A stretch of 64,000 bases of DNA from Patescibacteria group bacterium (GTDB lineage: Bacteria > Patescibacteriota > Minisyncoccia > Phycocordibacterales > UBA2100). Location: positions 170,361 to 234,360 of the forward strand of contig JBBTSD010000001.1 in the NCBI GenBank assembly GCA_038064835.1, given 5' to 3'. A program made the position numbers and the translations under genes. This document shows, one piece after another, positions 1 to 12,906 of this stretch. Positions within the stretch are counted from its first letter, which is position 1. Each line of letters opens with the position of its first letter. The notes under the pieces were generated by a model. It searched no databases and was not told where the DNA came from. It saw only the letters and a list, made by a program, of their open reading frames with translations.

Positions 1-245
1 TCACTTTTCCGTTTTGGAAAGTAGCTTAAAACAAGGGTATTTTAACGCTCACTTTCCAAAACTACTGGCGGGGACGATGCCCGGAACTTTGAACCGGAAA
101 CACGGCTCAAATTCGAGGATCTTGATAAAAGTATACAGAAACTAAGAGCAATCTACAAAGTTCACCCAGAGTGGTTTGAGGTGCCAAAACCAAGGTCAGA
201 TAAGGGCAAGAATGCAGTGGATTATTCCGTAAAATAAAAAGTTTA

Positions 246-767
246 CTAGAGCGGTGTTCTGAAAGAATTCAGCCAATTATCAAGGTCATTCATAGCATTT
301 CTAGTAGTTTCTTCAAATAATTTTTGGACTTCAATTCTTGAATTAAATGCTAGTTGATATTGAATAGCTCTCTTTTTCAAGGCGTCGATCATGTTAATAA
401 TATCTGTACCTGTTAATTGATTCTCTTCAAGAAAGGATTTTTTGTTTCGCATTACGGAAAGGTCATTATGGGCAATGATACTATTCCGCATATTGATAAT
501 TTTTTCAGAGATTTGATTTAACTCCTGACTATCAAACTTTCTTCCAAAATAATTCTCTTCAAGTAATTTTGCCAAGCCAAGTACAACTCCAGTCTCTAAA
601 CTGAGGAGTATAGTATTCCATGTAGCGGGATTCTTTTGGTAAACCTCGGTATTTACTCTTTTATGTAAATTTCCATTTAGCAACAATTGTCGATAAGTAA
701 ATAAAAGATCCCAAAATACATTTTCAAAGTCAGCTTGTTTTAACATTTTGTTTATTTTCAAAATCAA
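246..767 (-). CDS. HEPN-like protein (Rx4-6H motif RNSIIAH), paralog of the upstream overlapping gene; Abi-like, function unknown
   Basis: 173-aa ORF. Motif M-R-N-S-I-I-A-H-N-D matches the HEPN Rx4-6H signature. Alignable with ORF 730..1314 in the motif region and in the following helix. Overlaps the upstream gene by 17-38 nt depending on start (alt start 746). Confidence 0.5.
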   Translation of the reverse strand: MILKINKMLKQADFENVFWDLLFTYRQLLLNGNLHKRVNTEVYQKNPATWNTILLSLETGVVLGLAKLLEENYFGRKFDSQELNQISEKIINMRNSIIAHNDLSVMRNKKSFLEENQLTGTDIINMIDALKKRAIQYQLAFNSRIEVQKLFEETTRNAMNDLDNWLNSFRTPL

Positions 768-1314
768 TCAACATAATACAGTCCCACCATAATTTATCTG
801 CTTCTTGCAGCATTTGTTTAATTTCGGCTAAATCACCACCAAGATCTACCGGGGTATATCGTTCTTGTTCTTTCCCGACCGCCTTAATACGAGAAAAGTC
901 AGTTTGATAAAGACTCCTTAGTTTATCAATGTGCGCTTGGGAAAAACCTAACTTTAAAAAGTCTTTGTCGGTATGCGCAAATAATTTATCCCGGTTACTC
1001 TTAACTTTTCCAATGATATCTTTGTGGTCATCATACATTTTGTTAACCCTCTCAATAGTTTCTGGAAAGAGATTTTTAAATTTATCCAAACTAAAATGCT
1101 CATTTGAGGATTTACTATAAATCTTCCCTAAATGCATAATTATCGCGTACATGTAGACTCCCTCTACTGTCGGTAAGGACTTTTTTATTTCCGTATTTCC
1201 AAAGACTTTTTCAAATTCAGATAAAAACAGGTTTGTAACTGAAACCATCTCACTAAAATTACCAACCAGTTGAGATTGTTTTTCTTGTTCTTCCATAACT
1301 TTATTCATATTCAA
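730..1314 (-). CDS. HEPN-like protein (Rx4-6H motif RDKLFAH), paralog of the downstream gene; start overlaps guaA stop
   Basis: 194-aa ORF. Motif N-R-D-K-L-F-A-H-T-D. Start codon overlaps the 3' end of guaA by 14 nt (1301-1314), which suggests translational coupling. Confidence 0.5.
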   Translation of the reverse strand: MNMNKVMEEQEKQSQLVGNFSEMVSVTNLFLSEFEKVFGNTEIKKSLPTVEGVYMYAIIMHLGKIYSKSSNEHFSLDKFKNLFPETIERVNKMYDDHKDIIGKVKSNRDKLFAHTDKDFLKLGFSQAHIDKLRSLYQTDFSRIKAVGKEQERYTPVDLGGDLAEIKQMLQEADKLWWDCIMLIDFENKQNVKTS

Positions 1315-2848
1315 TGGTCGCAGGTGGCTTTTGAGTAATATCGTAAAGTACTCGATTTACTCCTCTCACCTTACCGATAATCGCGTTGGAGATTTTTTCC
1401 AGCAGCTCGTTCGGGATTTTGTGCCAATCGGCACTCATACCATCTATCGAATCAACTGCACGGAGCGCAATGACATATTCATAGGTTCGGCCGTCGCCCA
1501 TAACTCCAACCACCTTAACCGGTAGCAGTGCGGCAAAAGCTTGCCAAATCTTTTCGTATTCTCCAGCTTTACGTAGCTCCTCGATAAACACTGCGTCGGC
1601 TTCGCGAAGTATTTGGAGCCGATCTTCGGTAATTTCTCCGACAATACGAACAGCAAGCCCAGGACCTGGGAACGGGTGTCTCCAAAGTAGCTCTCTTGGA
1701 AGTCCGAGAGTTAGACCTACGCGACGCACCTCGTCTTTGTATAAATCTCTTATAGGCTCAAGAATCTTAAAGCCCATCTTTTCAGGAAGAGTAAGATTAT
1801 GGTGGCTTTTAATTTTCGCCGCTGTTTTTGAAGTCGAAGCGGATTCTATACGATCGGGATAAATAGTGCCTTGAGCCAGATATGCGATTGTGTGATTCTT
1901 GAGCTCGTTCTTAATCGCCTTTTCAAATACTTCGATAAAACTATGCCCGATGATTTTACGCTTTTGTTCTGGATCAGAAATGCCCTTTAACCGTTTCAAG
2001 AAAAGTTGGCTTGCATCAATAACATGAAGTTGTTTGAAGCCATTCTTGCGCAAGTATGAAGCAACTTGTTCGACCTCTCCTTTACGCAGAAGCCCCGTAT
2101 CGATAAAAACTGCATGGAGACGATTGCCGATAGCTCTATGGATAAGCGTAGCGGCTACCAATGAATCAACGCCACCAGAGATACCTACTACAACATGTCT
2201 GTCTCCAAGCTCGCCTTTTACTTCTGTAATGATATTTTCAGTAACCGAGCTTATTTTCCAGTTTTTCTTAGCTTTGCAGATTGAGAAAAGGAAATTCTTG
2301 AGTAACTTTTCTCCATGCTGGGTGTGAGTCACTTCTGGATGAAACTGGATGCCACAAAAATTGCTCTTTGAAGCAGCAAAAGCAGCATACTTACAACTGA
2401 CCGTAGATGCTGTTTGCTTAAATCCTTTCGGTAATATCGACACTTGATCGCCGTGCGAGAACCAAACAATTTCTTTTGCAGAAAGTGTTTGGAAAATTCC
2501 TTTCTTATCTTTAATACTCAAGACCTCTTTGCCAAATTCTCGATGTTTGCCTTTGATGACTTTGCCGCCAAGCATGTGCGCCATGACTTGATGACCATAG
2601 CAGATACCAAGAACCGGAATACCGAGCTTGAAGATTGCTTTGTCCGCTCGAGGACTACCTTTCTCTAACACCGAAGCAGGACCGCCGGACAGAATGATAC
2701 CAACAGGATTGTATTTTTGTATTTCAGAAGCTGGAGTATCAAAAGGCAAAATCTCGGCTTTTACGCCGAGATCCCGCACGCGCCTTGCTATGAGGTGAGC
2801 AAACTGACTTCCAAAATTGAGGATTATGACCATAGTAGATAATATCAC
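1301..2848 (-). CDS. guaA: GMP synthase (glutamine-hydrolysing)
   Basis: 515 aa. N-terminal class I glutamine amidotransferase region (GICYGHQ) and ATP pyrophosphatase region (SGGVDS), with a C-terminal dimerisation domain. Full-length architecture. Confidence 0.95.
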   Translation of the reverse strand: MILSTMVIILNFGSQFAHLIARRVRDLGVKAEILPFDTPASEIQKYNPVGIILSGGPASVLEKGSPRADKAIFKLGIPVLGICYGHQVMAHMLGGKVIKGKHREFGKEVLSIKDKKGIFQTLSAKEIVWFSHGDQVSILPKGFKQTASTVSCKYAAFAASKSNFCGIQFHPEVTHTQHGEKLLKNFLFSICKAKKNWKISSVTENIITEVKGELGDRHVVVGISGGVDSLVAATLIHRAIGNRLHAVFIDTGLLRKGEVEQVASYLRKNGFKQLHVIDASQLFLKRLKGISDPEQKRKIIGHSFIEVFEKAIKNELKNHTIAYLAQGTIYPDRIESASTSKTAAKIKSHHNLTLPEKMGFKILEPIRDLYKDEVRRVGLTLGLPRELLWRHPFPGPGLAVRIVGEITEDRLQILREADAVFIEELRKAGEYEKIWQAFAALLPVKVVGVMGDGRTYEYVIALRAVDSIDGMSADWHKIPNELLEKISNAIIGKVRGVNRVLYDITQKPPATIEYE

Positions 2849-2899
2849 TAATCATTGGCCAAATGAACCTTATTTTACTTCGGTTCAAAGTTGCCAATC

Positions 2900-2990
2900 T
2901 GGCGGAGAGGGAGGGATTCGAACCCTCGGAACCCTTTTGAGGCTCAGCACATTAGCAGTGTGCTGCATTCGACCGCTCTGCCACCTCTCC
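2900..2990 (-). tRNA. tRNA-Ser (anticodon GCT), long variable arm, CCA encoded
   Basis: The reverse complement folds as acceptor GGAGAGG/CCTCTCC, anticodon stem GCACA/TGTGC with loop CTGCTAA, a long variable arm, and T-loop TTCGAAT. Confidence 0.85.
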
Positions 2991-3059
2991 GTTATTCATA
3001 TGTACTTTACATCGCTTCTGCCCGGCAAGTATAGCTGAACATACCCCATCGTGCACCTT

Positions 3060-3938
3060 CTACGAATCGAGTGTTGCGAGGAGGGCAAAGAGCCCTGTAA
3101 AGGCAATACAAGCCCCCAGGACTTGGTGCCTACTTAGTTTTTCGCGCCCCACAAAATAGCCTAAGAGTGCAGCAAGAACAATATAGCTTTCGCTGATCAT
3201 GACGGTGATAGAAATGGATATTATACTGGTAGCGTATGCATAGGAAATCCATGCCATGTTATCAAAAAAGGTCTGCGCCAGAATGATATAGGGGTGCGCT
3301 CGTATGTCCTGCATCAATGATCTCACCTCACCTCGCACTATGATGTAAACACCACACAGTGCCGCAAGCATCCCATGGGTTGCCCAAATAACAAACAAGG
3401 GCGACATGCTTTGCGAGTAGGTACCGATATAGAAATTAGTGAGTGCCGAGAGAAATGCGGAAACAAAGGCGAGAAGCACCCCTTTCTCGAAGATGTGCCT
3501 GTGATAGCGCAGGTTATCAAGGCGGGGTGTAGTTGCCAAAATAACACCTGCAAATATAGCAAAAAAGATAATAAACTGGTGCACAGAGAGCGACTCACCA
3601 TTCACAAATACTCCCAAGCCGACTGTGATGGGCAGTTCAAGTGCCACCACCGACTCAACGACAGAAATCTTCCCGCGCTTGAGTGCTTGGAAGAGGAAGA
3701 GTGCGTAGACAAAAATTATTCCACTCAGTAGTGCGAGCGATTGATAATCCTCGAAAGTTCGTACGGAAATCTCATCTCCAATAAAAGGAAAAAGAATCAC
3801 CGTCGAACTGATGCATATAAAGAAGAGTGCCTTGTAAATACCGATAATGCGTGTCGCTTTTTGAATGAAAAAATCGCCGAGACCCCAGCCAATCATCGCG
3901 ATACATGCATAGAGAATGCCTAGGTGCATTCTTGCCAT
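3060..3938 (-). CDS. EamA-like / DMT-superfamily membrane transporter
   Basis: 292 aa, about 10 predicted TM helices arranged as two EamA-like halves. Confidence 0.55.
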   Translation of the reverse strand: MARMHLGILYACIAMIGWGLGDFFIQKATRIIGIYKALFFICISSTVILFPFIGDEISVRTFEDYQSLALLSGIIFVYALFLFQALKRGKISVVESVVALELPITVGLGVFVNGESLSVHQFIIFFAIFAGVILATTPRLDNLRYHRHIFEKGVLLAFVSAFLSALTNFYIGTYSQSMSPLFVIWATHGMLAALCGVYIIVRGEVRSLMQDIRAHPYIILAQTFFDNMAWISYAYATSIISISITVMISESYIVLAALLGYFVGREKLSRHQVLGACIAFTGLFALLATLDS

Positions 3939-5212: not shown

Positions 5213-6364
5213 ATGTCATCATTGGGTAACATGTTTGGGTCGTTGAGCTCCATGCTTTCAGGTAATGGCGGTACCAATAGCGTGTTGGGTATCGATATCG
5301 GATCGTCGTCGATCAAGATTGTGCAGTTGCGCACCAACAAAGAGAGTGCGATTTTGGAAACATACGGAGAAATCGCGCTCGGCCCCTATGCGGGTGTTGC
5401 TGTGGGCAAGGCAACCAAACTTCCTGTAGACAAAACAGCCGAAGCACTGAGGGATTTGATGAAAGAAGCAAATGTGACAGCGGTACACGCTGGCGTCTCT
5501 ATTCCATTTGCATCCAGCCTCATCTCCATGCTGGATCTTCCCAATGTGGATGATGTGCAATTAAAGCGCATGATTCCCATCGAAGCGCGGAAATACATTC
5601 CCATACCTATATCCGAAGTGCTTCTCGATTGGTTTGTGATCCCCGAGAGCGAAAAAGAAGACGACGCCTTTGACCGTGTCGTCAAGGAGGGTGTGATGCA
5701 AAAGAAGGGGCGTGAGGTGCTCTTGGTTGCAATCCATAATGAGGCACTACGCGCATACCAAACCATCATGGAGACGGCTGGAGTCTCGGTGTCGTTCTTC
5801 GAGATTGAAATTTTCAGCACTATCAGGTCGGCATTGGATCGCTCTCCTGTCCCTATTGCGGTGGTAGATATGGGCGCATCCACTACAAAGATTTACATCG
5901 TCGAGAGAGGGGTAGTGCACATGACACATCTTCTAAACATCGGTGCCCAACACATCACTGAATCGCTTGCCCGTGCGATGGGATGGACATTCGAGAAGGC
6001 CGAGCGTATGAAAAGAGAAATAGGACTAACTGATTCTCCCACCTACACGCGTGAGGAAAACGATCGTATCCATCAGACCATCGAGTCAACTTTCAATCGC
6101 ATGTTTACCGAAGTAAATCGCGTGTTGCTGAGCTTTGGCAAACGCTACAATAAAAATGTATCGCATGTGGTGCTTTCTGGCGGCGGTTCGTCCATGCCGA
6201 ATCTCAGCCGTACTGCACAAGACGGCCTTCATGCCGAGCTACAAATCGCACACCCTTTCGGCAAGGTTGAATCTCCGGCATTTCTCGAAGAAGTGTTACG
6301 CACCATTGGTCCTGGGTTTTCAGTCGCCGTTGGTGTGGCCCTGCGGAAACTTTCAGAGAAATAG
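5213..6364 (+). CDS. pilM: type IV pilus assembly ATPase-like protein PilM
   Basis: 383 aa. Actin-like ATPase fold signature VLGIDIGSSSIKIVQL at the N-terminus. First gene of the pil block. Confidence 0.85.
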   Translation: MSSLGNMFGSLSSMLSGNGGTNSVLGIDIGSSSIKIVQLRTNKESAILETYGEIALGPYAGVAVGKATKLPVDKTAEALRDLMKEANVTAVHAGVSIPFASSLISMLDLPNVDDVQLKRMIPIEARKYIPIPISEVLLDWFVIPESEKEDDAFDRVVKEGVMQKKGREVLLVAIHNEALRAYQTIMETAGVSVSFFEIEIFSTIRSALDRSPVPIAVVDMGASTTKIYIVERGVVHMTHLLNIGAQHITESLARAMGWTFEKAERMKREIGLTDSPTYTREENDRIHQTIESTFNRMFTEVNRVLLSFGKRYNKNVSHVVLSGGGSSMPNLSRTAQDGLHAELQIAHPFGKVESPAFLEEVLRTIGPGFSVAVGVALRKLSEK

Positions 6365-11697: not shown

Positions 11698-12906
11698 ATG
11701 GCAGTCTTTTCATACAATGCGGTTGACCAGGAAGGTAACCAGCGGAAGGGGACAATCGACGCAGTCAATATGGATGTGGCGGTTACCGCACTCCAGAGGC
11801 GTGGCCTAGTTGTTGCGGGTATCGATGAAGCACAAAAGCCATCGGCACTTTTCGAACGACTTAATCTGTTCCAAGGTGTGAGTAATCGCGATGTCGTGAT
11901 GCTCTCGCGCCAGATCACTACGCTTTTCGAAGCTCAAGTTTCGGCACTGCGCACATTTCGGCTTTTGGCATCCGAGGCTCGCACGCCACTGCTGAGTGAG
12001 AAACTCACAGAAATCGGAAATGATATCCAGAGTGGTAGTACGATCTCGGCAGCGCTTTCCAAACACCCGAGTATGTTCTCGGCATTTTATGTAAACTTGG
12101 TGCGTGCCGGTGAAGAGTCTGGAAAGCTCGATGAAACATTCTCTTTCCTCGCCGACTACCTCGACAGAAACTATGAAATCACACAAAAAGCCCGCAACGC
12201 GCTTATCTATCCCGCCTTCGTGACTGCCACATTCGTAGTTGTGATGGTTATGATGATGACATTGGTTATCCCGCGTCTTTCAGCGATTCTGACCGAAGTG
12301 GGTCAAGAGGTGCCGATCTACACCAAAGTGGTCATTGGCATCAGCACATTTATGACAAATTACTTCCTCCTATTCGCTCTGGCGGTTGTCATCGGCGCTG
12401 TTCTTTTGTTGCGTTACAGCGGCACTGAGGGTGGGCGACTAGCACTCTCACAAACGCGACTTCGTATCCCGCAAGTAGGGCTCATCTACCAACAGCTATT
12501 TCTTTCGAGACTTACCGACAACCTCAGTACTATGTTGCGAAGCGGTATTCAAATGGTGCGGGGGCTCGAGGTTAGCTCATTTGTGGTGGGGGATGCGGTA
12601 TATGAACGGATACTGACCGAAGCGACGAACGATGTGAAAGGTGGTCTTCCTGCATCAGAAGCATTTCGCAAGCATCCTGAGATTCCAGGTATCGTTGTTG
12701 CGATGATAAAGATTGGTGAAGAGACGGGAAACTTGAGTAAAATTCTCGATACGCTTGCGCGATTTTATCGTCGCGAAGTTTCAAACTCTATTGATACTTT
12801 GGTCGGGCTCATTGAACCGTTCATGATCGTCGGACTTGCCGTAGGTGTCGCATTTCTCCTTGCCGCAGTGCTTATCCCGATTTACAACATATCTGCTGGA
12901 TTCTAG
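11698..12906 (+). CDS. pilC: type IV pilus platform protein PilC/GspF
   Basis: 402 aa, two GspF-type repeats with three TM helices. Confidence 0.9.
   Translation: MAVFSYNAVDQEGNQRKGTIDAVNMDVAVTALQRRGLVVAGIDEAQKPSALFERLNLFQGVSNRDVVMLSRQITTLFEAQVSALRTFRLLASEARTPLLSEKLTEIGNDIQSGSTISAALSKHPSMFSAFYVNLVRAGEESGKLDETFSFLADYLDRNYEITQKARNALIYPAFVTATFVVVMVMMMTLVIPRLSAILTEVGQEVPIYTKVVIGISTFMTNYFLLFALAVVIGAVLLLRYSGTEGGRLALSQTRLRIPQVGLIYQQLFLSRLTDNLSTMLRSGIQMVRGLEVSSFVVGDAVYERILTEATNDVKGGLPASEAFRKHPEIPGIVVAMIKIGEETGNLSKILDTLARFYRREVSNSIDTLVGLIEPFMIVGLAVGVAFLLAAVLIPIYNISAGF

What the first reader, a model, noticed from the sequence alone, without database searches (positions are those of the whole stretch)
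246..1314. Two overlapping paralogous HEPN-motif genes translationally coupled to guaA
Both ORFs carry a textbook Rx4-6H HEPN signature in equivalent positions (MRNSIIAHND and NRDKLFAHTD) and align through the following helix, so they are diverged tandem paralogs. The upstream copy starts inside the guaA stop region (14-nt overlap), and the second starts 17-38 nt inside the first. That is tight coupling, typical of toxin or abortive-infection modules that hitch onto a housekeeping operon. HEPN pairs usually come with a MNT or antitoxin partner. Here the partner is another HEPN, which would be unusual: a heterodimeric HEPN RNase or a toxin/pseudo-toxin pair.
Basis: partly seen in the sequence, partly recalled or inferred. 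Interest (0 to 1): 0.6.

Follow-up and report, generated by a model that had tools for sequence, protein, structure and literature searches.

The report
Two stacked AbiU2-type HEPN defence genes
Two small genes right after the GMP synthase gene of an uncultured Patescibacteria bacterium are very divergent members of a known family of predicted anti-phage RNases (HEPN_AbiU2); they look like two separately acquired mobile genes parked side by side, not an obligate toxin pair.

Summary
The ORFs are real. ORF2 is 730..1296(-), 188 aa. ORF1 is 246..746(-), 166 aa. Both pass Pfam's own cut-off for HEPN_AbiU2 and keep a conserved R-x5-H motif. Both evolve under purifying selection, and both have about 32% GC in a 49% GC genome.

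They are not recent tandem paralogs. BLASTP finds nothing between them, and only profile methods link them.

The best-supported ORF2 start lies 4 nt after the guaA stop, so there is no overlap with guaA. The 17-nt ORF2/ORF1 overlap is real. It looks like an insertion scar, because unrelated Type ISP restriction genes overlap ORF1 homologues by the same 17 nt.

Across about 30 related loci the two families mostly occur alone, usually inside restriction-modification islands. One sister genome has guaA-ORF2 without ORF1.

Some evidence still allows an optional interaction. A second sister genome has the two genes fused into one 350-aa protein through a 1-nt deletion, and a distant locus repeats the same gene order.

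Verdict: new members of a known kind, of modest interest.

Side observation: an unexplained 165-nt element and precise 'CCGCCAG' junctions suggest that guaA and the HEPN genes sit in shufflable cassettes anchored at tRNA-Ser.

The parts
730..1296 (-). ORF2: 188-aa HEPN_AbiU2-family protein. The NCBI call AAB421_00760 uses ATG 1308 and gives 192 aa; the longest ORF starts at TTG 1314.
   Evidence: Pfam PF18734 at 31.9 bits against a cut-off of 26.8. The start at 1296 is conserved in homologues. The family is rare: 109 representatives at E<=1e-3 among 1.84e9 proteins. dN/dS is 0.09-0.14.
973..993 (-). ORF2 R-x5-H motif (RDKLFAH, within SNRDKLFAHTD)
   Evidence: Read from the sequence. H is invariant and R is present in 13 of 14 relatives.
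246..746 (-). ORF1: 166-aa HEPN_AbiU2-family protein (AAB421_00755)
   Evidence: Pfam PF18734 at 36.3 bits. 70 homologues, nearly all 164-182 aa. AF2 model is all-helical with pLDDT 87. dN/dS is 0.06-0.20.
468..488 (-). ORF1 R-x5-H motif (RNSIIAH, within NMRNSIIAHND)
   Evidence: Read from the sequence. R87 and H93 are invariant in 30 relatives.
730..746 (-). 17-nt ORF2/ORF1 overlap (ATGTTAAAACAAGCTGA). The ORF2 stop TGA lies inside ORF1 codons 5-6. This is the site of the 1-nt deletion that fuses the genes in L007.
   Evidence: The same 17-nt overlap with an unrelated Type ISP restriction gene is seen in L047, and the same gene order in L016. Homology with the ORF1-less sister genome L032 ends at about window 763.
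1301..2833 (-). guaA (GMP synthase, 510 aa by gene call). Its stop is 4 nt before the ORF2 start.
   Evidence: Pfam GATase plus GMP_synt_C; gene call.
63..227 (+). 'el': a conserved ~165-nt element just downstream of ORF1. Its coding-type conservation is on the strand opposite the HEPN genes (peptide GGDDARNFEP...KLRAIYKVHPEWFEVPKP...DYSVK*). No in-frame start codon is present.
   Evidence: nhmmer copies after ORF1 homologues in L007, L008, L016, L046 and L047, after the ORF2 homologue in L032, and after a 59-aa gene in L001 and L032. Substitutions fall at codon position 3, with counts [4,1,15] and 15 synonymous against 4 non-synonymous codons. No Rfam, Pfam or PHROG hit.
65..71 (-). 'CCGCCAG' junction at the end of el (read on the - strand). 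It is the same heptamer as the 3' end of tRNA-Ser.
   Evidence: flanks are swapped precisely at this heptamer between L001, L032, L007 and L008.
2900..2990 (-). tRNA-Ser(GCT) immediately upstream of guaA. Its 3' 27 nt are repeated 4.25 kb downstream, beyond the left end of the window.
   Evidence: ARAGORN and Rfam. Direct repeat L001 7822-7848 / 12074-12100, 93% identical.

Best explanation
These are two separate, functional, horizontally acquired genes. Each encodes a small stand-alone HEPN_AbiU2 protein, a predicted metal-independent endoribonuclease of the abortive-infection or restriction-modification-associated defence type.

They are stacked one behind the other at the 3' end of the guaA module. 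They are not a duplicated or obligate pair.

ORF2-type genes sit alone behind guaA in a sister genome and inside R-M operons elsewhere. ORF1 travels as an 'ORF1 + el' unit found behind several unrelated genes. Here it landed exactly on the ORF2 stop codon, which created the 17-nt overlap.

Both genes are probably transcribed from guaA read-through or from a promoter inside guaA. This is inferred: no promoter or terminator signal stands out.

By analogy with characterised HEPN RNases, each protein would be active as a dimer that juxtaposes two R-x5-H motifs and would cut RNA on phage infection. Homodimers suffice, because each family usually occurs alone. Heterodimers are possible but not required.

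Shown here: family membership, motif conservation, purifying selection, independent distribution, and the insertion architecture.

Inferred: RNase activity, dimerisation, defence role, and co-transcription.
For: Family membership:
- Pfam PF18734 above cut-off for both; 14 of 14 and 28 of 30 family members hit it.
- Motif residues are conserved.
- dN/dS is 0.06-0.20 for both genes.

Foreign origin:
- GC is 31-33% against 44% for guaA and 49% for the window.
- Synonymous divergence is decoupled from guaA. Window against L007: HEPN genes dS 0.21-0.24, guaA 1.21. Window against L032: ORF2 dS 2.2, guaA 0.98.

Independent occurrence:
- L032 has guaA-ORF2 only, and the el segment follows directly.
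- ORF1 homologues lie behind Type ISP, Type IIG and GmrSD-HNH genes and in front of type III Mod/Res genes.
- ORF2 homologues lie behind GmrSD-HNH and EcoRI-like methylase genes, between a type III Mod gene and a ResIII gene with a 158-aa gene in between, directly in front of a ResIII-like helicase gene as judged from its sequence, or alone.
- L046 keeps an intact ORF1 next to a truncated ORF2.

Insertion scar:
- An identical 17-nt overlap occurs with an unrelated upstream gene.
- Homology with other ORF1 contexts starts about 10-15 nt before the ATG.

Literature:
- AbiU2 is a HEPN family with the Rx4-6H motif, found in R-M operons (PMC3710099).
- Canonical HEPN dimerisation through the motif is required for activity in RnlA (PMC8266594).
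Against: - No biochemical or phenotypic data exist for any close relative.
- Lactococcal AbiU2 was not toxic when expressed in E. coli (PMC3985639), so RNase or toxin activity cannot be assumed.
- Fold searches against the PDB gave no significant match. HepT and other HEPN chains appear only at E 1.5-2.3 for ORF1, and none appear in the 50 matches listed for ORF2.
- No PADLOC model matches.
- The window locus has no R-M partner.
- Three observations are more linkage than pure chance stacking predicts: the in-frame fusion in L007, the repeated ORF2-type to ORF1-type order in distant L024, and the near-equal dS of the two genes between the window and L007.
Confidence: 0.55

Rival explanations
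1. The two proteins work together as a hetero-dimeric HEPN RNase. One R-x5-H motif from each chain forms the composite site. The pair is on its way to a single-chain tandem-HEPN effector.
For: - A 17-nt overlap places both genes in one transcription unit.
- Both catalytic motifs are intact and both genes are under purifying selection.
- Sister genome L007 has a 1-nt deletion in the overlap that yields one 350-352-aa protein with two HEPN_AbiU2 stretches, scoring 59 bits.
- ORF2-type followed by ORF1-type recurs in L024, at 25% and 56% identity, both with motifs intact.
- Given how rare the ORF2 family is (109 representatives among 1.84e9 proteins), two adjacencies are unlikely by chance.
- P0089 and P0113 are ORF2-like proteins with a second, weakly HEPN-like domain.
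- The two genes have the same dS between the window and L007, so they moved together.
Against: - Most members of each family are solitary.
- L032 has ORF2 without ORF1 at the same site.
- L046 keeps ORF1 while ORF2 is truncated.
- The L007 fusion rests on one base in one co-assembled MAG and may be an assembly error.
- The second domain of P0089 is not ORF1-like and appears to lack the Arg of the motif, judged by eye from the sequence.
- No heterodimer model could be computed.
Confidence: 0.25
2. This is a toxin / pseudo-toxin (antitoxin-like) pair. One HEPN protein neutralises the other by forming an inactive heterodimer.
For: - The arrangement is bicistronic and overlapping, like a toxin-antitoxin module.
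- No other antitoxin candidate is adjacent.
Against: - Both keep the catalytic R and H, and both are under purifying selection, so neither looks like a degenerate decoy.
- Each family is usually found without the other. That is hard to reconcile with a toxin that needs this particular antidote.
- The in-frame fusion in L007 would covalently tie toxin to antitoxin.
- L. lactis AbiU2 is not toxic in E. coli.
Confidence: 0.07
3. These are housekeeping RNA-processing proteins functionally tied to guaA or purine metabolism, not defence genes.
For: - The 4-nt spacing from guaA, no terminator in between, and a purine nucleoside phosphorylase-family gene downstream.
- The guaA-ORF2 adjacency is conserved in three related genomes.
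Against: - GC is 12-17 points below the surroundings.
- Synonymous divergence is decoupled from guaA.
- Distribution is patchy, and all more distant relatives lie in R-M or mobile contexts without guaA.
Confidence: 0.05

Closest known systems
HEPN_AbiU2 family (Pfam PF18734; defined by Anantharaman et al. 2013, PMC3710099, from L. lactis AbiU2)
   Same: Both proteins pass the family's curated cut-off. Both have the R-x(4-6)-H motif. They are small, all-helical proteins. Their relatives sit in restriction-modification operons, as described for the family.
   Different: They are very divergent, and PADLOC's defence models find nothing. The host is a Patescibacteria (CPR) bacterium. In the window there is no R-M or Sel1-repeat partner. 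Two family members are stacked with a 17-nt overlap.
Lactococcal AbiU two-gene abortive-infection system (abiU1 + abiU2; Dai et al. 2001, cited in PMC3985639 and PMC3632139)
   Same: Both are two-gene loci that contain an AbiU2-type HEPN protein. In relatives L008, L024 and L034 the HEPN gene lies one or two genes from a ParB/DUF262-type (GmrSD_N-HNH) gene, the superfamily to which AbiU1 is assigned.
   Different: In the window the partner is a second HEPN_AbiU2 protein, not an AbiU1/ParB-like protein. No phenotype is known.
HEPN-HEPN operons noted by Anantharaman et al. 2013 (family 'Bxe_C0808: in operon with AbiU2')
   Same: An AbiU2-type HEPN gene is paired with another HEPN gene in one operon, so a HEPN partner for a HEPN is not unprecedented.
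   Different: Here both partners belong to AbiU2 itself. The Bxe_C0808 family was not tested here because no model was available.
R-M-linked HEPN anticodon nucleases (PrrC, RloC) and HEPN-MNT (HepT-MntA) toxin-antitoxin systems
   Same: The predicted chemistry is the same: a HEPN RNase active as a dimer. The role is also the same, a latent suicide or backup nuclease. For ORF1, HepT chains appear among weak fold matches.
   Different: There is no ATPase/ABC domain, no MNT partner and no R-M partner in the window, and no significant sequence or fold match.
Single-chain tandem-HEPN effectors (e.g. Cas13)
   Same: The fused 350-aa form in L007 has two HEPN domains in one chain.
   Different: There is no homology, the protein is much smaller, no guide-RNA machinery was seen, and the window itself has two separate genes.

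Membership tests
HEPN_AbiU2 (PF18734) | Whole-protein score at or above Pfam's gathering cut-off (26.8 bits) | tested here: met
   ORF1 scores 36.3 bits and ORF2 31.9 bits. 28 of 30 and 14 of 14 family members hit the model at E<=0.01, and no other family matches.
HEPN_AbiU2 (PF18734) | Conserved R-x(4-6)-H catalytic motif | tested here: met
   RNSIIAH: R87 and H93 are invariant in 30 sequences. RDKLFAH: H is invariant and R is present in 13 of 14. The motifs align in register by hhalign.
HEPN_AbiU2 (PF18734) | All-alpha HEPN fold resembling solved HEPN domains | tested here: inconclusive
HEPN_AbiU2 (PF18734) | Genomic association with R-M operons (PMC3710099) | tested here: inconclusive
   Not met in the window, where the neighbours are guaA and PNP_UDP_1. 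Met for many relatives of both families.
HEPN_AbiU2 (PF18734) | Endoribonuclease activity or phage-resistance phenotype | not testable with these tools
   Needs biochemistry or genetics.
Lactococcal AbiU system (AbiU1 + AbiU2) | Adjacent AbiU1-type (ParB/DUF262, COG1479) partner gene | tested here: not met
   The window neighbours are guaA and PNP. There is no PADLOC hit. GmrSD_N-HNH genes lie near homologues only in L008, L024 and L034.
HEPN-MNT type II toxin-antitoxin | Adjacent minimal nucleotidyltransferase (MNT) antitoxin gene | tested here: not met
   No MNT domain was found in the flanking genes.
   Of 22 related ORF1-family loci with enough upstream sequence to judge, only L007 and L024 have a complete ORF2-type gene upstream. 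Two further close relatives have none, although L046 keeps a truncated remnant. Outside the window/L007 lineage, none of the ORF2-family contexts with at least about 450 nt of downstream sequence has an ORF1-type gene downstream.
Single-chain tandem-HEPN effector | Two HEPN domains in one polypeptide | tested here: not met
   The window has two ORFs in different frames, found on 12 contigs from at least six samples. This feature is met only in L007, through a 1-nt deletion.
Integron-type gene cassette | 3' recombination site that folds as a conserved imperfect hairpin (attC), with an integrase nearby | tested here: not met
   el has no conserved structure: consensus energy is -2.9 kcal/mol and the DNA fold z-score is -1.85. 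No integrase-type Pfam family was listed among the called genes of the 20-kb locus. The junction sequence CCGCCAG differs from the integron core, as recalled from general knowledge.

The most novel reading that the evidence does not exclude
The HEPN genes, and guaA itself, may be cargo of an undescribed cassette-shuffling system in Patescibacteria. In this reading, modules that end in the ~165-nt 'el' element recombine precisely at a 'CCGCCAG' core shared with the 3' end of tRNA-Ser genes, so defence and metabolic genes are stacked, swapped and occasionally fused. The ORF2-ORF1 overlap, and its 1-nt-deletion fusion in a sister genome, would then be a snapshot of how a two-HEPN single-chain RNase arises from two stacked mobile genes.
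Probability: 0.2. Interest if true: 0.6.

Novelty: new member of a known kind. Interest (0 to 1): 0.3.

Why it matters
As it stands, this adds two very divergent AbiU2-type HEPN genes from the poorly studied Patescibacteria (CPR) to a known defence family. It also shows that tight gene overlap can be an insertion scar and is not evidence of partnership.

If the optional-heterodimer or fusion reading holds, it would give a small, tractable natural example of two mobile HEPN genes becoming a tandem-HEPN protein.

The side observation may be more informative about genome plasticity in CPR bacteria than the HEPN genes themselves. That observation is the el element and the precise CCGCCAG junctions that reorder modules containing guaA next to tRNA-Ser.

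Tried and rejected
Searches on the two ORFs that found nothing:
- PADLOC models: no hit for either ORF, even at E<=10.
- NCBIfam: nothing meaningful.
- PHROGs: nothing below E 0.07.
- tblastn against 50,697 phage records: no match for ORF1, ORF2 or the el peptide.
- PDB sequence profiles: only chance hits, E 0.06 or worse.
- Foldseek against the PDB: no significant match.

Signals near the genes:
- Promoter and terminator scans of 1..3100 were at chance level (7 found against 6.7 expected; 3 against 2.2). None lies between guaA and ORF2.

Readings rejected:
- Recent tandem duplication, because of BLASTP E 5.4 and the ORF1 indel in L032.
- Overlap-based translational coupling to guaA, because the conserved start is 4 nt after the stop.

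Work on el:
- No Rfam match, even at E<=1, apart from a chance snoRNA hit.
- No Pfam hit.
- No conserved RNA or DNA fold.
- Not a tRNA or tmRNA by ARAGORN.
- A junction-spanning ORF was considered. In L032 and L008, an in-frame stop separates the leader from the conserved reading frame of el.
- The inverted repeat across the el/leader1 junction is only 9 of 11, which I estimate is not beyond chance.
- Only one IMG/VR contig carries el.

Literature: the original AbiU paper (PMC93294) is not held in the library.
Full report
**What is there**

The window comes from an uncultured Patescibacteria (CPR) genome, contig CAYHZP010000001.1. The two ORFs are annotated there as hypothetical proteins AAB421_00755 and AAB421_00760.

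On the minus strand, guaA (1301..2848; GATase plus GMP_synt_C) is followed by ORF2 and then ORF1. The 253 nt beyond ORF1 have no called gene. A PNP_UDP_1 (purine nucleoside phosphorylase family) gene starts just outside the left end of the window. tRNA-Ser(GCT) lies immediately upstream of guaA.

**Gene boundaries**

- ORF1 starts at ATG 746. It gives a 166-aa protein identical to database entries and was called the same way on 12 contigs; the six places shown come from six samples.
- The longest ORF for ORF2 starts at TTG 1314, and NCBI uses ATG 1308. That ATG is part of guaA's last codons, TAT GAA TAA.
- Homologues of ORF2 that are not next to guaA begin at the equivalent of ATG 1296, 'M-x-EQEKQ'. 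Other gene callers also start there.
- ORF2 is therefore most likely 730..1296, 188 aa, beginning 4 nt after the guaA stop. There is no overlap with guaA.
- ORF1 overlaps ORF2 by 17 nt (730..746).
- Promoter-like and terminator-like matches in 1..3100 are at chance level, and none separates guaA from ORF2. Co-transcription with guaA is plausible but only inferred.

**Family assignment**

- Both proteins exceed Pfam's curated cut-off for HEPN_AbiU2 (PF18734): 36.3 and 31.9 bits against 26.8. 28 of 30 ORF1 relatives and 14 of 14 ORF2 relatives hit this family and no other.
- The motif NMRNSIIAHND has R87 and H93 invariant across 30 relatives. SNRDKLFAHTD has H invariant and R present in 13 of 14.
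- AlphaFold2 models are confident and all-helical, with pLDDT 87.
- Foldseek against the PDB gave no significant match. HEPN chains (HepT 6m6w and 7bxo, and 2hsb) appear only at E 1.5-2.3 for ORF1, and none appear in the 50 matches listed for ORF2. Fold-level confirmation is therefore inconclusive. More sensitive libraries were not available.
- PADLOC, NCBIfam, PHROGs, phage genomes and PDB sequences gave nothing.

**Are they paralogs?**

They are, but only in the sense of belonging to one old family.

- BLASTP between them finds nothing (E 5.4).
- hhalign of the two family alignments aligns the helix before the motif and the motif itself in register: 45 columns, 22% identity, E 2e-4, probability 46%.
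- A few sequences score with both profiles. These are the most divergent ORF1 clade and P0166, P0170 and P0122.
- There is no sign of a local duplication.

**Foreign origin and selection**

- The two genes have 31-33% GC. guaA has 44% and the window 49%.
- Both are under purifying selection, with dN/dS 0.06-0.20.
- Their history differs from that of guaA. Between the window and sister genome L007, dS is 0.21-0.24 for the HEPN genes but 1.21 for guaA. Between the window and sister genome L032, ORF2 has dS 2.2 while guaA has 0.98.

**Co-occurrence**

ORF1 has 70 database relatives, nearly all 164-182 aa. ORF2 has 8 close and 7 more distant relatives. An exhaustive profile search finds only 109 ORF2-family cluster representatives among 1.84 billion proteins.

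In the loci fetched, scanned with both family profiles, the picture is as follows.

- *ORF1-type genes are normally alone.* They lie:
  - behind Type ISP genes (L016, L047);
  - behind a Type IIG gene (L019);
  - near GmrSD_N-HNH genes (L008, L024);
  - in front of type III Mod or Res genes (L015, L027);
  - next to serine recombinases (L010, L046).
- *ORF2-type genes are also normally alone.* They lie:
  - behind GmrSD_N-HNH and an EcoRI-like methylase (L034);
  - between a type III Mod gene and a ResIII gene, with a 158-aa gene in between (L036-L039);
  - directly in front of a ResIII-like helicase gene, as judged from its sequence (L043);
  - next to an N6_N4 methylase, or isolated.
- *Sister genome L032* (guaA 93% identical) has guaA followed by the ORF2 homologue with the same 4-nt spacer but no ORF1. 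The ~170 nt that follow ORF1 in the window follow the ORF2 homologue directly in L032.
- *L046* carries a 93%-identical ORF1 preceded only by the last ~150 nt of ORF2, abutting a truncated serine recombinase.

This matches what Anantharaman et al. (2013) described for AbiU2, 'R-M operons'.

**The overlap as a scar**

- Homology between the window and L032 ends at about window 763. Homology with ORF1 units in other contexts begins about 10-15 nt before the ORF1 ATG.
- In L047 an unrelated Type ISP restriction gene runs into the ORF1 homologue and stops at the same TGA inside ORF1 codons 5-6, giving the same 17-nt overlap.
- The C-terminal tail of ORF2 (ENKQNVKTS) is therefore encoded by the leader and first codons of ORF1. 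The overlap reflects where the ORF1 unit lands. It is not evidence of selected coupling.

**Evidence that keeps an interaction open**

- In sister genome L007 (guaA 91% identical) the overlap differs by one deleted base, AAACAAGCTGAC against AAACAAG-TGAC. The deletion removes the ORF2 stop and joins both domains in one 350-352-aa ORF. Pfam finds two AbiU2 stretches in it, at 59 bits. This rests on a single MAG.
- In the distant locus L024 an ORF2-type gene (25% identity, motif QNRNRIISH) precedes an ORF1-type gene (56% identity) by 83 nt, in an R-M island.
- P0089 (351 aa) and P0113 are ORF2-like proteins with a second, weakly HEPN-like domain. That domain is not ORF1-like and appears to lack the Arg, judged by eye from the sequence.
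- HEPN-with-HEPN operons involving AbiU2 were already noted in 2013 ('Bxe_C0808: in operon with AbiU2').

**Mechanism**

Inferred from family knowledge, each protein is a small HEPN RNase. In characterised HEPN enzymes the active form is a dimer with the two Rx4-6H motifs juxtaposed (RnlA, PMC8266594). Because each family usually occurs alone, homodimers should suffice. The stacked arrangement would give two independent latent RNases, or optionally a heterodimer.

A toxin/pseudo-toxin reading is unlikely, for three reasons. Both motifs are conserved. Each gene occurs without the other. Lactococcal AbiU2 was not toxic in E. coli (PMC3985639).

A housekeeping role linked to guaA is unlikely given the composition, the decoupled dS and the patchy distribution.

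**Side observation (unexplained)**

The ~165 nt after ORF1 (window 63-227, called 'el' here) recur in several places:
- after every ORF1 homologue of at least 83% identity (L007, L008, L016, L046, L047);
- after the ORF2 homologue in L032;
- in a second type after a 59-aa gene in L001 and L032;
- in one IMG/VR contig, between a holin-like gene and a LexA-like repressor, near CBASS-like genes and a large serine recombinase (these gene identities are judged from the sequences only).

On the strand opposite the HEPN genes, el shows coding-type conservation. Differences fall at codon position 3 ([4,1,15], [1,3,9], [5,4,15], [8,5,18]), and the length differences I could size, 24 nt in L007 and three extra residues in L008, are multiples of three. 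Yet no in-frame start codon is present where I checked, in the window and in the viral contig. There is no conserved RNA or DNA fold and no Rfam, Pfam or PHROG match.

el ends in '...CCGCCAG', the same heptamer as the 3' end of tRNA-Ser. Flanks are exchanged exactly at this heptamer:
- The leader of guaA follows tRNA-Ser(GCT) in the window, a tRNA-like fragment in L007, and el type B in L032. Its first ~23 nt also follow el in L008.
- The leader of the PNP gene follows el type A in the window. The homologous leader of a DUF218 gene follows tRNA-Ser(CGA) in L032.

In both L001 and L032 the whole set of modules lies between a tRNA-Ser gene and a duplicate of its 3' end.

This looks like site-specific reshuffling of modules that include guaA and the HEPN genes. 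No recombinase was identified in the window locus.

**Verdict**

The sequence observation is largely right and the HEPN call is right. The 'paralogous, coupled, heterodimeric pair' interpretation is mostly not supported.

These are new, divergent members of a known defence-associated family, stacked by mobile-element traffic. Interest is modest. A low-probability, more interesting reading is fusion in progress, or a cassette system.

Noticed in passing
window 63-227 (= L001 10520-10684); copies at L007 6517-6702, L008 2052-2225, L016 6507-6596, L032 4338-4502 and 2078-2190, L001 11729-11853, L046 1800-1876, L047 982-1173, L044 7107-7227: A conserved ~165-nt element ('el') lies downstream of the HEPN genes and of some other genes. 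On the opposite strand it shows codon-position-3-biased substitutions, and the length differences I could size are multiples of three. The conserved peptide reads GG.D...EP..RL...D..I..LR.IY...P..F[ED][VI]P. No in-frame start codon was found where I checked (the window and the viral contig). There is no known RNA, protein or PHROG family match and no conserved fold.
   Followed up: partly
window 65-71 and 2899-2925; L001 7840-7848, 10676-10682 and 12074-12100; L032 1125-1133, 2181-2189 and 4662-4680; L008 about 2216-2222: Precise junctions fall at 'CCGCCAG'. The left partner is tRNA-Ser(GCT), tRNA-Ser(CGA) or an el copy. The right partner is one of two conserved leaders, one leading to guaA and one to PNP or DUF218. 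The modules occur in different orders in sister genomes, always between a tRNA-Ser gene and a duplicate of its 3' end. This suggests site-specific cassette shuffling that includes guaA.
   Followed up: partly
L007 5440-6498 (junction about 6009-6012), against window 730-746: A single-base deletion in the 17-nt overlap fuses ORF2 and ORF1 into one 350-352-aa two-HEPN protein in a sister MAG. It could be a real fusion or an assembly error.
   Followed up: partly
window 246-2833 against L007 and L032: Synonymous divergence of the HEPN genes is decoupled from the adjacent guaA. dS is 0.21-0.24 against 1.21 (window-L007), and 2.2 against 0.98 (window-L032). This indicates recent transfer or replacement of the HEPN genes at a fixed site.
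   Followed up: yes
L046 142-1781: A 93%-identical ORF1 is preceded by only the last ~150 nt of ORF2. That remnant is joined directly to a large serine recombinase gene for which no Resolvase (N-terminal catalytic) domain hit is listed, so it looks truncated. A deletion appears to have removed parts of both genes.
   Followed up: partly
P0089 (351 aa) and P0113 (286 aa, partial): These are ORF2-like HEPN_AbiU2 proteins with a second, weakly HEPN-like C-terminal domain. Its motif position reads GNTFTIH, apparently without the Arg, judged by eye. This may be an independent lineage with a HEPN plus pseudo-HEPN architecture.
   Followed up: partly
L036-L039, 3429-8581: A distant ORF2-type gene (195 aa) sits inside a type III-like R-M operon, between the N6_N4 methylase and the ResIII helicase. 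It is followed by a 158-aa protein with a sub-threshold LPD3 match. AbiEi/AbiEii and a SocA_Panacea-domain gene lie nearby.
   Followed up: no
L044/L045 (IMGVR_UViG_3300025154_002045, about 31.8-44 kb): This is the only viral contig with an el copy. The copy lies between an amidase plus holin-like pair and a LexA-like repressor. These are followed by a CD-NTase-like gene with a TM effector, a 456-aa serine recombinase and a type I HsdR fragment (gene identities judged from the sequences only). It could be a prophage end or an accessory island.
   Followed up: partly
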